IMG/VR virus record: IMGVR_UViG_3300045988_110343 | Span: 1-64,000 of that record | Direction: 5' to 3' (one strand) | Length of the DNA: 64,000 bases | Source of the DNA: a virus | Shown here: one piece after another, positions 41,702 to 42,775 of the stretch | Position numbering within the stretch: the stretch's first letter is position 1 | Layout of the letters: each line of letters starts with the position of its first letter | Position numbers and translations under genes: made by a program | The notes under the pieces: generated by a model | Told to the model about the DNA's origin: nothing | Database searches by the model: none | The model's input: the letters and a program-made list of their open reading frames with translations, nothing else

Positions 41702-41815
41702 TGTATGGCATATTCTGGAAATGTTATATTTCGCTTATTGTATGGATAAGTATGCCAAAAGTGAGGAGGAATCACTCATTAAAATTTGTGTTAGTTTTGT
41801 TGAAATTAATACAGA
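41702..41815 (+). ncRNA. structured RNA element, copy 1 (paralog of 42661..42775)
   Basis: Stems TGGCATA/TATGCCA, CTTAT/ATAAG and AGTGAG/CTCATT, with compensatory changes relative to copy 2. Confidence 0.6.
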
Positions 41816-41921
41816 TACAGAATGTACGGGTGGCAGAGCTGGTTTAATGCGCAGGATTGCTAATCCTGTATACGTACGAATATGCGTATCCTGGGGTCGT
41901 AGCCCAGTCCGTACGCTAAAT

Positions 41922-41996
41922 CGCACCATCGTCTAAATGGTTTTAGGACACATCCCTTTCACGGATGCAATACGAGTTCGACTCTCGTTGGTGTGA
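41922..41996 (+). tRNA. tRNA-Glu(TTC)
   Basis: Acceptor CGCACCA/TGGTGTG; anticodon stem CATCC/GGATG with loop CTTTCAC; T-arm ACGAG-TTCGACT-CTCGT. Confidence 0.65.
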
Positions 41997-42036
41997 TGTT
42001 TGTCCTACAATGTTCTTCGGACTTGTGGGCTAATAT

Positions 42037-42120
42037 CCCTGTTTATACTGCTAAGGAGACAGGCAAAACTGTAAATTTTGCGGCTTCGGTCACGAGTGGG
42101 TTCGATTCCCTCAACAGGGA
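42037..42120 (+). tRNA. tRNA-Tyr(GTA)-like, type II (long variable arm)
   Basis: Acceptor CCCTGTT/AACAGGG; anticodon stem CAAAA/TTTTG with loop CTGTAAA; 15-nt variable region; T-arm GTGGG-TTCGATT-CCCTC (one U.U). D-arm is irregular. Confidence 0.5.
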
Positions 42121-42368
42121 TGATTAGGTTAGTAACTATACGATAGATTAACCAAAAAATATGCGAACACCCTGATGGTTGGTGGATATTGGAATGTATA
42201 CCTCTTCTGATATTCTGATGGAGTTCATCACTTCAGTTCGCCTTGAGAGTACCTCAAATTCCTACGAGGATTAAGGTCGTTTTTAAAGGTATTCCTACAC
42301 ACAATATCTTTAATATTTAACATTATACTGCGTCGCCAGTGTGTAAATATAAGACGTGGTAAATATAT

Positions 42369-42442
42369 TGACATGTAGCTCAATTGGACAGAGCACAACG
42401 CTACGGACGTTGGTGTTGCAGGTTCGATTCCTGTCGTGTCAG
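42369..42442 (+). tRNA. tRNA-Arg(ACG)
   Basis: Acceptor TGACATG/CGTGTCA; D GCTC/GAGC; anticodon stem CAACG/CGTTG with loop CTACGGA; T-arm GCAGG-TTCGATT-CCTGT. Confidence 0.65.
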
Positions 42443-42448
42443 TTTCAT

Positions 42449-42522
42449 TGGCTAGTAGCTCAATGGTAGAGCACACGGCTGTTAACCGTGCGGTTTTGCA
42501 AGTTCAAGTCTTGCCTAGCCAG
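42449..42522 (+). tRNA. tRNA-Asn(GTT)
   Basis: Acceptor TGGCTAG/CTAGCCA; D GCTC-AATGGTA-GAGC; anticodon stem CACGG/CCGTG with loop CTGTTAA; T-arm GCAAG-TTCAAGT-CTTGC. Confidence 0.65.
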
Positions 42523-42525
42523 TTT

Positions 42526-42609
42526 TCCTACATACCTCAGAGGCTAGAGGGTCATCAAAGCAAGGATAACATTAGATGAAAGTCGCTGGTTCGAATCCAG
42601 CTGTAGGAA
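42526..42609 (+). tRNA. tRNA-like gene with an enlarged (18-nt) anticodon loop
   Basis: Acceptor TCCTACA/TGTAGGA, D CCTC/GAGG and T-arm GCTGG-TTCGAAT-CCAGC all pair perfectly. Anticodon stem TCATC/GATGA encloses AAAGCAAGGATAACATTA. Confidence 0.5.
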
Positions 42610-42660
42610 TTGTATTTTAAATTAAAATATAATCAAAAAATAAATTACACAAGTATTTGT

Positions 42661-42775
42661 GTATGGCACGTTCTGAAGATATTAAATCTTGCTCATTTAC
42701 ATGATGAGTGTGCCAAAAGTGAGGAATTTTTCACTCACTAAAATTTGTATTACTTATTTTATACAAATACAGAAC
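42661..42775 (+). ncRNA. structured RNA element, copy 2
   Basis: Stems TGGCACG/TGTGCCA, CTCAT/ATGAG and AGTGAG/CTCACT. Confidence 0.6.

What the first reader, a model, noticed from the sequence alone, without database searches (positions are those of the whole stretch)
41702..42775. Two paralogous ~115-nt structured RNA elements flank the first tRNA block and show compensatory base changes
Copy 1 (41702..41815) and copy 2 (42661..42775) share the scaffold GTGTATGGCA...TGCCAAAAGTGAGGA...CACTCA.TAAAATTTGT.

Where the copies differ, the stems stay paired:
- Outer stem TGGCATA/TATGCCA in copy 1 vs TGGCACG/TGTGCCA in copy 2: a T-A pair becomes C-G.
- Inner hairpin CTTAT/ATAAG vs CTCAT/ATGAG: again T-A becomes C-G.
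- 3' hairpin AGTGAG/CTCATT (with a G.U pair) vs AGTGAG/CTCACT.

The G.U wobbles only pair on the plus strand, which is the strand of the tRNAs.

This supports a conserved, unannotated RNA fold co-transcribed with the tRNA array, possibly a processing signal or a regulatory or decoy RNA.
Basis: seen in the sequence. Interest (0 to 1): 0.7.

Follow-up and report, generated by a model that had tools for sequence, protein, structure and literature searches.

The report
Stand-alone Cas12f guide RNAs among phage tRNAs
The two repeated RNA elements are real, and they are compact guide-RNA scaffolds for a phage-borne CRISPR nuclease (Cas12f) sitting alone in the tRNA cluster; one carries a 19-base guide that exactly matches the ROOL RNA gene found at the same spot in sister phages, so they look like weapons or selfish drive elements in phage-versus-phage conflict.

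Summary
Copy 1 (41692-41823) and copy 2 (about 42645-42775, plus a guide at 42776-42794) are paralogous, plus-strand, strongly structured RNAs.

They are not a tRNA-processing motif. Diverged copies lie directly downstream of a cas12f gene, about 50 kb away, in sibling human-gut phage genomes, interleaved with 36-nt CRISPR repeats and 30-nt spacers.

Across 33 distinct copies, six helices are 97.7% paired, and 25 of 43 pairs show double compensatory changes. The helices include the anti-repeat:repeat duplex and the pseudoknot next to the guide that typifies TnpB and Cas12f guide RNAs.

In the window, a short loop joins anti-repeat and repeat, making a natural single-guide RNA.
- Copy 1 is a precise 131-nt presence/absence unit. 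Its repeat ends one base before tRNA-Ser.
- Copy 2 replaces a full ROOL RNA gene present in 13 sibling contigs. Its 19-nt guide matches ROOL's conserved core exactly, and there the match follows TTTT.
- A third solo copy abuts tRNA-Arg in another phage.

Many carriers lack cas12f, and cas12f itself is not in this window.

Identity is near certain. Whether the copies act as guides (homing or rival exclusion) or as decoys remains an inference. I rate this a new variant of a known kind, of high interest.

The parts
41692..41823 (+). Copy 1: the complete solo guide-RNA unit (repeat-like 5' leader, scaffold, anti-repeat, short loop, repeat 3' half). It is a precise 131-nt presence/absence unit (41692-41822; the T at 41823 can be assigned to either side).
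   Evidence: Unoccupied alleles join ...CTACAAAAATTA directly to TGTGCATG or TGTACGG (tRNA-Ser) in 14 sibling loci. The covariance model hit is 41704-41823 at 92.1 bits. Identity to diverged siblings is 97.7-99.2%, while the flanks overall are 75-82% identical.
41706..41757 (+). Copy 1 three-way junction. P1 is 41706-41711 with 41752-41757. It encloses P2 (41718-41723 with 41727-41732) and P3 (41733-41739 with 41745-41751).
   Evidence: Minimum-free-energy fold. Covariation: P1 has 3, P2 has 7 and P3 has 4 pairs with changes on both sides.
41712..41717 (+). Copy 1 pseudoknot 5' strand, ATTCTG. It pairs with CAGAAT at 41818-41823, the last six bases of the repeat, next to the guide position.
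   Evidence: Partner sets across copies are ATTCTG/CAGAAT, GTTCTG/CAGAAC, GTTTTG/CAAAAC, GTTCTG/CGGAAC and GTTTCG/CGAAAC. This matches the PK / repeat:anti-repeat-1 of TnpB and Cas12f guide RNAs (PMC10097598).
41760..41780 (+). Copy 1 P4 hairpin (AGTGAGGA...TCACTCAT). This is the most conserved core of the family (CCAAAAGTGAG...ACTCAYTAAAA).
   Evidence: Invariant columns in alignment A2. The inner pairs covary: G-C/A-U and A-U/U-A/C-G.
41785..41815 (+). Copy 1 anti-repeat:repeat hairpin (TTTGTGTTAGTTTT, loop GTT, GAAATTAATACAGA). In the CRISPR arrays of siblings the same two strands are 28-63 nt apart; here a 3-nt loop joins them.
   Evidence: 7 of 10 pairs have changes on both sides. Each repeat type has its own matching anti-repeat.
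41824..41843 (+). Guide position of copy 1: the first ~20 nt of tRNA-Ser(GCU), whose gene spans 41824-41916. The repeat ends at 41823 and the tRNA starts at 41824.
   Evidence: ARAGORN and Rfam tRNA coordinates. In unoccupied sibling alleles the same sequence is preceded by TTAT.
42645..42775 (+). Copy 2: repeat-like leader (AAATTACACAAG...) plus scaffold. P1 is 42664-42669 with 42710-42715. The pseudoknot is 42670-42675 with 42770-42775. P2 is 42676-42690, P3 is 42691-42709, P4 is 42718-42739. The anti-repeat:repeat pair is 42743-42750 with 42761-42768.
   Evidence: The covariance model hit is 42662-42775 at 100.5 bits.
42776..42794 (+). Guide of copy 2: CGCTACAATAATAGACGCT (19 nt).
   Evidence: It matches exactly the ROOL RNA gene that occupies this same tRNA gap in 13 sibling contigs, where it is preceded by TTTT. 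ROOL identity: Rfam RF03087, 308.8 bits, E 1.5e-71. The match covers ROOL's conserved ACAAUAGACG core. For the related Al3Cas12f, 19 nt is the optimal spacer length and the PAM is T-rich (PMC13186708).
42612..42844 (+). The whole copy 2 allele: the scaffold and guide cassette set inside the remnants of the ROOL terminal helix (42612-42625 and 42831-42844). It includes a stretch, about 42795-42830, that resembles the D-arm and anticodon-stem part of tRNA-Ser.
   Evidence: Inverted repeat I3. Three alleles exist at this site: ROOL, a short hairpin scar, and this cassette. The local alignment to tRNA-Ser has p = 0.003.

Best explanation
Both elements are natural single-guide RNAs for a phage-encoded type V-F nuclease, Cas12f.

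**Shown.**
- Each copy carries the whole scaffold: the tracrRNA-like P1-P4 core, an anti-repeat, the 3' half of a CRISPR repeat, and a pseudoknot formed by the last six repeat bases.
- The two halves, which are separate in the CRISPR arrays of sibling phages, are joined here by a short loop.
- The sequence just 3' of the repeat is therefore in the guide position.

**Inferred.**
- The elements are transcribed with the tRNA operon and loaded onto Cas12f. The nuclease would come either from the phage's own gene, about 50 kb downstream and outside this window, or in trans from a co-resident sibling phage.
- Copy 2 would direct cleavage of the ROOL RNA gene in rival sibling genomes (TTTT followed by a 19-nt perfect match). 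That either destroys the rival or converts its ROOL allele into the cassette by recombinational repair. The carrier is immune because the repeat, not a PAM, precedes the sequence in its own DNA.
- Copy 1 follows the same logic as a TnpB omega-RNA. Its guide is simply the flank, the 5' end of tRNA-Ser, which would target sibling alleles that lack the insert. RNase P removes the element from the tRNA, so the insertion is harmless.
For: **Link to cas12f and CRISPR arrays.**
- Diverged copies lie right after the stop codon of a 535-557-aa protein. It scores Pfam Cas12f1-like_TNB 2.4e-19 and OrfB_IS605. PDB matches are 8hr5 at 6.5e-66 and Al3Cas12f (9NZO/9NZR) at 3.4e-65.
- The same copies also lie between 36-nt repeats and 30-nt spacers that differ between genomes.
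- The tRNA locus and the cas12f locus lie 50-55 kb apart on the same contigs. This includes contig 133811, which carries both window copies.

**Structure.**
- Covariation supports six helices, including anti-repeat:repeat and the pseudoknot.
- The architecture is the same as the TnpB omega-RNA / Cas12f sgRNA 'guide-PK-stem' (PMC10097598) and the Al3Cas12f sgRNA. There an engineered GAAA loop sits where the natural loop is here.

**Copy 2 guide and ROOL.**
- The guide matches ROOL exactly over 19 nt, after TTTT, in 13 contigs at the allelic site.
- A diverged orthologous copy 2 (L226) carries a different guide that matches a different ROOL variant at 16 of 17 positions.

**Other solo copies and their flanks.**
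- A third solo copy abuts tRNA-Arg, and unoccupied alleles there read TTCT|tRNA.
- All five target flanks have at least 3 T in 4 bases. The background rate is 0.125 per site, giving 3e-5 for all five. This fits the T-rich PAM, 19-nt optimum and 129-156-nt gRNAs of the related MG119/Al3 family.

**Sibling phages do target each other.**
- One array spacer hits rival cas12f genes after TTTG.
- An orphan spacer in a cas12f-less phage matches 30 of 30 bases in 13 siblings and in this window at 36701-36730, after GTTT.

**The nuclease looks active.** The RuvC and zinc-finger motifs are intact by eye.
Against: - cas12f is not in the window, so its presence in this genome is inferred from the closest contig.
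- Copy 1 is not linked in cis to cas12f. It is present in 16 of 21 cas12f-less contigs and in 6 of 9 cas12f-bearing contigs.
- For copy 1 and the tRNA-Arg copy, RNase P cleavage at tRNA +1 would remove the guide entirely.
- The left junction of copy 1 (AAAAATTA|CACAA) lies inside a 13-nt repeat-like motif. The 'empty' allele may therefore be a deletion derivative, not a naive target.
- In the L094-type lineage the guide position holds the middle of a class II tRNA, whose intact form has a non-T-rich flank, GCCGT.
- The 19-nt ROOL match could be a relic of the insertion site and not a selected guide.
- No expression, binding or cleavage data exist. The PAM is inferred from five flanks only.
Confidence: 0.6

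Rival explanations
1. RNA decoys (RNA anti-CRISPR). The scaffolds are made in quantity from the tRNA operon and trimmed by RNase P exactly at the repeat end. This would leave guide-less RNAs that soak up the Cas12f of rival or resident sibling phages and protect the carrier.
For: - The repeat ends one base before tRNA +1 in two independent cases: copy 1 and the tRNA-Arg copy in L226.
- Most carriers of copy 1 lack cas12f.
- Siblings do carry spacers against each other, including one against this window.
- Solitary repeat units acting as RNA anti-CRISPRs are known (PMC11656645).
Against: - It does not explain the exact 19-nt, PAM-flanked ROOL match of copy 2, nor the guide in L226 that tracks a different ROOL variant.
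- Copy 2 is 72 nt from the next tRNA.
- Copy 1 is also kept in cas12f-bearing phages, where a decoy would blunt their own nuclease.
Confidence: 0.2
2. Inert relics. These would be fragments of CRISPR modules that recombined into the indel-prone tRNA cluster and are simply decaying.
For: - The tRNA cluster is a hotspot of indels.
- Many siblings have lost cas12f and keep only a tracr remnant.
Against: - Three diverged lineages (copy 1, copy 2, L094-type) keep every helix through compensatory changes.
- Copy 1 is 97.7-99.2% identical where the adjacent tRNAs are 44-68% identical.
- Exactly the guide-length piece of ROOL survives while the other ~570 nt are gone, apart from the terminal-helix remnants that flank the cassette.
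Confidence: 0.08
3. Regulatory guides. These would be natural sgRNAs that steer Cas12f to bind, without cutting, a partly complementary site so as to repress transcription. Known parallels are the long tracrRNA form of Cas9 and cr-like RNAs.
For: Natural single guides and standalone repeat-like RNAs with regulatory roles are known (titles and abstracts listed). The scaffold is complete.
Against: - The guide positions hold tRNA or ROOL sequence with full-length matches to sibling alleles, not partial matches to promoters.
- No partial self-match was looked for systematically.
- The nuclease motifs are intact.
Confidence: 0.05
4. A Cas12f-independent element of the tRNA operon (processing signal, leader or stable small RNA).
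For: Position inside the tRNA cluster and direct abutment to a tRNA. From my own memory, not tested here: phage T4 encodes two stable small RNAs of unknown function in its tRNA cluster.
Against: - Homologues occur away from any tRNA, directly after cas12f and inside CRISPR arrays.
- The 3' hairpin and the pseudoknot pair with CRISPR repeat sequence and covary with it.
- Sibling phages with the same tRNAs lack the element.
Confidence: 0.03

Closest known systems
Cas12f (type V-F) tracrRNA:crRNA and engineered sgRNAs, especially the Cas12f-MG119 / Al3Cas12f family from human gut metagenomes (PMC13186708)
   Same: - The associated nuclease is a sequence relative (E 3.4e-65 to 9NZO/9NZR).
- The guide RNA is long, with the same order of parts: a helix presenting the pseudoknot strand, a conserved hairpin, the anti-repeat, the repeat, six pseudoknot bases, then the guide.
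- The target flanks are T-rich and the guide is 19 nt.
   Different: - tracr and crRNA parts are fused by nature, not by engineering.
- The units stand alone, about 50 kb from cas12f or in genomes without it, inside a tRNA operon.
- The P1 helix encloses two extra hairpins.
- Primary sequence is not alignable to the published sgRNAs (motif look-up negative).
TnpB omega-RNA (reRNA) of IS200/IS605 elements and its homing or retention role
   Same: - A single-molecule scaffold plus guide, with the guide-pseudoknot-stem core.
- The guide is simply the DNA flanking the element's right end.
- The unoccupied allele carries the adjacent motif plus the target, while the occupied allele is immune.
- The unit is a precise presence/absence polymorphism.
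   Different: - No tnpB overlaps the RNA.
- No TnpA and no recognisable transposon ends were seen.
- The partner nuclease is a CRISPR-associated Cas12f with real spacer arrays.
- The mechanism of first insertion is unknown.
Virus-borne mini-CRISPR arrays used in interviral conflict (Medvedeva et al. 2019; review PMC11656645)
   Same: Minimal CRISPR parts carried by viruses, guides aimed at close relatives, and often no nuclease in cis.
   Different: - Mini-arrays are repeat-spacer-repeat units that rely on a host system.
- Here the unit is a full tracr-containing single guide with only a half repeat.
- The nuclease is phage-borne.
- The target is the allelic site that the cassette itself replaces.
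RNA anti-CRISPRs (solitary repeat units)
   Same: A solitary CRISPR-derived RNA gene in a phage genome. For copy 1, RNase P could leave a guide-less product.
   Different: These elements are complete scaffolds of about 120 nt, not bare repeats, and copy 2 carries a bona fide-looking guide.
ROOL RNA (Rfam RF03087)
   Same: The genomic niche: between tRNAs in phage tRNA islands.
   Different: The window elements are not ROOL. Copy 2 replaces ROOL and carries a guide against it.

Membership tests
Cas12f guide RNA (tracrRNA plus crRNA repeat) | Encoded next to a cas12f gene and a CRISPR array | tested here: met
   This is met for homologous copies in sibling phages, which lie directly after the cas12f stop codon and between repeats and spacers. 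The two window copies themselves are solo, and cas12f is not within the window. It lies about 50-55 kb away on contig 133811, the only cas12f-typed contig that carries both copies.
Cas12f guide RNA (tracrRNA plus crRNA repeat) | Anti-repeat complementary to the repeat of its own array | tested here: met
   Ten pairs are 97.6% paired, and 7 have changes on both sides. Each repeat type has its own matching anti-repeat.
Cas12f guide RNA / TnpB omega-RNA | Pseudoknot between a 5' segment and the nucleotides immediately 5' of the guide | tested here: met
   Six pairs are 97% paired. Five different covarying partner sets occur. The architecture is as described in PMC10097598.
Cas12f guide RNA (tracrRNA plus crRNA repeat) | Guide 3' of the repeat that matches a PAM-flanked protospacer | tested here: met
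   - Copy 2: 19 of 19 match to ROOL after TTTT.
- Copy 1: its guide equals tRNA-Ser, and unoccupied alleles read TTAT. This case is weaker.
- Array spacers have targets after TTTG and GTTT.
Cas12f guide RNA (tracrRNA plus crRNA repeat) | Expressed, bound by Cas12f, and supports cleavage | not testable with these tools
   No transcriptome or biochemistry is available.
TnpB omega-RNA / IS200-IS605 element | RNA overlaps the 3' end of tnpB inside a transposon with TnpA-recognised ends | tested here: not met
   The solo copies have no adjacent ORF of this kind. No tnpA was seen near them, though there was no exhaustive search. Only the first array unit starts right after cas12f.
TnpB omega-RNA / IS200-IS605 element | Guide is the flank of the element; the unoccupied site has the adjacent motif plus the target | tested here: met
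   There are precise occupied and unoccupied alleles for copy 1, copy 2 versus ROOL and the tRNA-Arg copy. The direction of the copy 1 indel is uncertain.
Viral mini-CRISPR array | One or two spacers bounded by full repeats on both sides | tested here: not met
   Only the 3' half of one repeat is present, and no downstream repeat follows either guide.
RNA anti-CRISPR (solitary repeat unit) | Solitary repeat without a functional spacer that inhibits the cognate effector | tested here: inconclusive
   Copy 1 could become guide-less after RNase P cleavage. Copy 2 has a matching guide. Inhibition is not testable here.
Any Rfam family | Score at or above the gathering threshold | tested here: not met
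   Only tRNAs pass the threshold. In E-value mode nothing credible overlaps the elements.

The most novel reading that the evidence does not exclude
The solo units may be nuclease-free, guide-only selfish elements.
- Each would be a roughly 130-nt RNA gene that converts whatever conserved RNA gene lies to its right (tRNA-Ser, tRNA-Arg or ROOL) into a Cas12f guide.
- It would borrow Cas12f from its own or a rival phage and so drive itself into unoccupied or ROOL-bearing alleles of co-infecting relatives.
- That would amount to a natural CRISPR gene drive among phages. It would also make ROOL, an RNA of unknown function, a direct object of phage-phage conflict.
Probability: 0.35. Interest if true: 0.9.

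Novelty: new variant of a known kind. Interest (0 to 1): 0.8.

Why it matters
- **A natural single guide for a CRISPR nuclease.** Single-guide RNAs for CRISPR nucleases are usually seen as an engineering trick, or as the ancestral transposon (omega-RNA) state. Here a CRISPR-associated Cas12f lineage has split tracr/crRNA modules in arrays. It also has naturally fused, stand-alone single guides elsewhere in the genome, often in genomes with no nuclease. That bears on how guide RNAs split and re-fuse in type V evolution. It also offers ready-made compact scaffolds.
- **A possible guide-only drive.** Each guide matches the allele its cassette replaces. This suggests that a guide RNA alone can act as a homing or exclusion element, extending the TnpB 'selfish spread' idea to CRISPR parts that act in trans between competing phages.
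- **A handle on ROOL.** ROOL forms RNA nanocages and has no known function. Sister phages differ by ROOL, a deletion scar, or an anti-ROOL guide at one site. This points to a testable fitness role for ROOL in mixed infections.

Tried and rejected
- **Rfam.** Gathering mode and E-value mode gave no family for the elements.
- **Isolate phages.** There is no close isolate relative by DNA. The closest terminase is Clostridium phage c-st at 58%.
- **Coding potential.** Small ORFs across the elements are not conserved between the copies.
- **Promoters and terminators.** The scan gave nothing above shuffle expectation. Only a terminator-like hairpin at 41646-41662 lies upstream of copy 1.
- **Upstream conserved leader, 41478-41672.** It shows no significant fold (z +0.8) and no Rfam hit.
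- **GTDB genome scan with the scaffold motif.** It returned one hit, a G+C-rich cyanobacterial contig with no similarity outside the motif, which I treated as chance.
- **Spacer searches.**
  - 28 array spacers against 50,697 phage records gave no match.
  - One spacer against IMG/VR found only its own arrays.
- **Metagenome scan.** A 38-nt class of hits is a coding-sequence coincidence in unrelated ~105-kb contigs.
- **Published Cas12f sgRNAs.** A look-up of the scaffold's conserved motifs in the supplementary files of PMC13186708 found none. Only the architecture matches, by my own reading of the published sgRNAs.
- **ROOL allele as a decayed copy of the element.** Rejected: beyond the 19-mer, blastn-short gave only 9-15-nt matches, none significant, and the allele is a full ROOL.
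- **Copy 2 downstream region as a ROOL remnant.** Not significant (p 0.24), whereas similarity to tRNA-Ser is (p 0.003).
- **Cis-linkage of copy 1 with cas12f.** Tested per contig and not found.
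Full report
**1. The observation**

The + strand of 41701-41767/41772-41801 repeats at 42659-42725/42731-42760, 958-959 nt apart, with 76-83% identity. Similarity extends left into AAATTACACAA and right to ATACAGAA(T/C). Ten tRNA genes follow on the same strand at 41824-43316. Copy 1 ends at 41823 and tRNA-Ser starts at 41824.

Both copies fold much better than shuffled sequence on the + strand (z -3.6 to -5.2). 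On the - strand the fold is poor (z -1.7 and -2.3). Three further paired regions also differ in compensatory fashion between the copies. No Rfam family matches.

**2. Relatives and the decisive context**

A scan of IMG/VR with a conserved 15-mer found about 35 contigs of 80-170 kb that carry copy 1 at 98-99% identity. Only two of them also carry copy 2. A second motif scan found diverged copies at a different locus of the same contigs, three in tandem, with no tRNAs nearby.

At that second locus the copies start right after the stop codon of a 535-aa protein. They are interleaved with 36-nt direct repeats and 30-nt unique spacers. The protein is a Cas12f:
- Pfam Cas12f1-like_TNB at 2.4e-19, plus OrfB_IS605.
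- PDB relatives 8hr5 at 6.5e-66, Al3Cas12f (9NZO/9NZR) at 3.4e-65, and TnpB at 4e-52.
- The RuvC motifs (GVDLG, NIENL, NADYNA) and the zinc finger are intact by eye.

Each array module has its own scaffold and its own repeat type, with a matching anti-repeat. The tRNA locus and the cas12f locus are 50-55 kb apart on five contigs. cas12f is not encoded in the window, which is what this spacing predicts.

The phages come from human gut metagenomes. Their terminase is closest to Clostridium phage c-st, at 58%.

**3. Structure**

I built an alignment of 33 distinct units. For each I took the scaffold through the anti-repeat plus the last 18 nt of its repeat, with the linker removed. Six helices were specified by hand:
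- P1, closing a junction that contains P2 and P3.
- P4, the invariant core.
- The anti-repeat:repeat duplex.
- A pseudoknot between the six bases after P1 and the last six bases of the repeat.

Results:
- 97.7% of cells pair, against 34-54% when partners are slid by 1-3 columns.
- 25 of 43 pairs change on both sides.
- The covariation score is 0.489, against 0.152 or less.

Two caveats apply. The sequences are related to one another, and the structure was derived from them.

Many pairs are G.U or U.G, which fixes the + strand. The architecture is the 'guide-pseudoknot-stem' shared by TnpB omega-RNA and Cas12f sgRNA (PMC10097598). It also parallels the published Al3Cas12f sgRNA, in which an engineered GAAA loop joins anti-repeat and repeat.

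In the arrays, anti-repeat and repeat are 28-63 nt apart. In the tRNA-locus copies they are 1-20 nt apart. The tRNA-locus copies are therefore natural single guides. A covariance model from the alignment finds exactly two copies in the window.

**4. Copy 1**

Scanning for the tRNA-Ser 5' sequence found 14 sibling loci in which ...CTACAAAAATTA joins directly to T-GTGCATG or T-GTACGG. Copy 1 is therefore a precise 131-nt presence/absence unit. Both states occur in two tRNA-Ser lineages.

Against diverged siblings the element is 97.7-99.2% identical, while the tRNAs just downstream are 44-68% identical. The 230-nt non-coding stretch upstream is equally conserved, so conservation alone does not prove recent spread.

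In unoccupied alleles the guide-equivalent sequence is preceded by TTAT.

One caveat concerns direction. The left junction lies inside a 13-nt repeat-like motif, so the unoccupied allele may be a deletion derivative.

A third lineage of the element (L094-type) keeps all helices through compensatory changes. It abuts a truncated class II tRNA whose intact form has a non-T-rich flank.

**5. Copy 2 and ROOL**

Three alleles occupy the gap between tRNA-Leu/Asn and tRNA-Gln:
- The copy 2 cassette (window, L005, L019).
- A short hairpin scar.
- A ~590-nt insert.

That insert is a full-length ROOL RNA: RF03087, 308.8 bits, E 1.5e-71. The window has no ROOL.

The 19 nt after the copy 2 repeat (42776-42794) match the ROOL gene exactly in 13 contigs. 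There the match follows TTTT and covers ROOL's conserved ACAAUAGACG core. Nothing else in ROOL scored significantly against the window region in that comparison. The remnants of ROOL's terminal helix flank the cassette.

For the related Al3Cas12f family, the PAM is T-rich, 19 nt is the optimal spacer and gRNAs are 129-156 nt.

A diverged orthologous copy 2 in another phage (L226) has compensatory changes in P3. Its guide is different and matches another ROOL variant at 16 of 17 positions. The stretch after the guide resembles part of tRNA-Ser (p 0.003). This suggests the cassette descends from a copy 1-like locus whose guide was replaced.

**6. More of the same logic**

L226 carries a third solo unit whose repeat abuts tRNA-Arg(TCT). 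Seventeen unoccupied sibling alleles read TTCT|tRNA.

Genuine array spacers also target siblings:
- One hits rival cas12f genes after TTTG.
- One, in a cas12f-less phage, matches 13 siblings and this window (36701-36730) perfectly after GTTT.

All five flanks have at least 3 T of 4. The background rate is 0.125 per site, giving 3e-5 jointly. The pattern is partly post hoc.

Many siblings have lost cas12f but keep a tracr remnant or a one-spacer module. Copy 1 is not linked in cis to cas12f: 16 of 21 contigs without it carry copy 1, against 6 of 9 with it.

**7. Interpretation**

Shown:
- The elements are Cas12f guide-RNA scaffolds in naturally fused form.
- They are discrete indels.
- Copy 2's guide equals a PAM-flanked site in the allele it replaces.

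Inferred:
- They load onto Cas12f, from the same phage or a co-resident one.
- They cut rival alleles, leading to exclusion or homing.
- For tRNA-abutting copies, RNase P both makes the insertion harmless and competes with guide formation.

The main rival is a decoy role. It fits the exact abutment to tRNA +1 and the nuclease-less carriers, but not the ROOL-matching guides.

**8. Novelty**

These things are already known:
- Cas12f tracr/crRNA.
- The omega-RNA as a 'natural sgRNA'.
- Viral mini-arrays aimed at relatives.
- RNA anti-CRISPRs.

I found no description of the following:
- Stand-alone, naturally fused Cas12f single guides in tRNA islands.
- A guide aimed at ROOL.
- Arrays with one tracrRNA per module.

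The literature search covers open-access text only.

Noticed in passing
window 36701-36730 (+), inside ORF 36524-39352: A perfect 30/30 protospacer, preceded by GTTT, for the single spacer of an orphan tracr-repeat-spacer module in a cas12f-less sibling phage (L166). The same site is hit in 13 sibling loci. This phage is therefore itself a target in the same conflict.
   Followed up: partly
L001:11997-12585 (also L094:1713-2245): A full-length ROOL RNA (308.8 and 210.3 bits) lies between tRNAs in sibling phages. Across the clade this site is polymorphic: ROOL, a hairpin scar made of ROOL's terminal helix, or the anti-ROOL guide cassette. ROOL variants differ at guide positions 4-9.
   Followed up: partly
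L093:2790-3580, L098:680-1525 (-), L154, L193: The cas12f-linked CRISPR arrays are modular. They hold three or four modules, each with its own tracrRNA-like scaffold, its own repeat variant and one or two spacers. The first scaffold begins within a few bases of the cas12f stop codon, as in tnpB/omega-RNA loci.
   Followed up: partly
L162:6110-6900 and about 25 further loci (L155, L157, L192, ...): Many sibling phages have a deletion running from about codon 8 of cas12f to the last module. What remains is a conserved tracr scaffold with one degenerate repeat, or one recurrent spacer (TATATGGTATTTTTCTATGCTTCATGTAAT).
   Followed up: partly
L226 4163-4276 (-): A third solo guide scaffold lies between tRNA-Lys and tRNA-Arg(TCT), with its repeat end abutting the tRNA. 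Siblings lack it and read TTCT before the tRNA.
   Followed up: partly
window 41463-41690 (+): The non-coding stretch between the Ant-like gene and copy 1 is 96-100% identical in siblings whose coding flanks are about 90% identical. It ends in a terminator-like hairpin (41646-41662 plus a T-run). It has no significant fold and no Rfam hit, and its function is unknown.
   Followed up: partly
window 3235-3372 (-): Rfam reports a tRNA match (46.4 bits) spanning 138 nt that ARAGORN does not call. It may be an interrupted or intron-containing tRNA far from the main cluster.
   Followed up: no
window 42122-42367 (+): A 245-nt gap between tRNA-Tyr and tRNA-Arg contains a stretch that aligns poorly with some siblings (about 22% identity in the 50-nt window at 42250). 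It is another indel-prone spot in the cluster, and its content is unidentified.
   Followed up: no
L001:12201-12213 versus window 42769-42775: In ROOL the protospacer's TTTT is itself preceded by ACAGAAC, the same seven bases that end the copy 2 repeat. This could be chance, or a trace of how the guide was captured. It remains unexplained.
   Followed up: no
L021:11015-11800 (also L047, L081): These siblings carry about 785 nt between tRNA-Met and the following tRNA, where the window has about 120 nt. No Rfam family passes threshold there, and its content is unidentified.
   Followed up: partly
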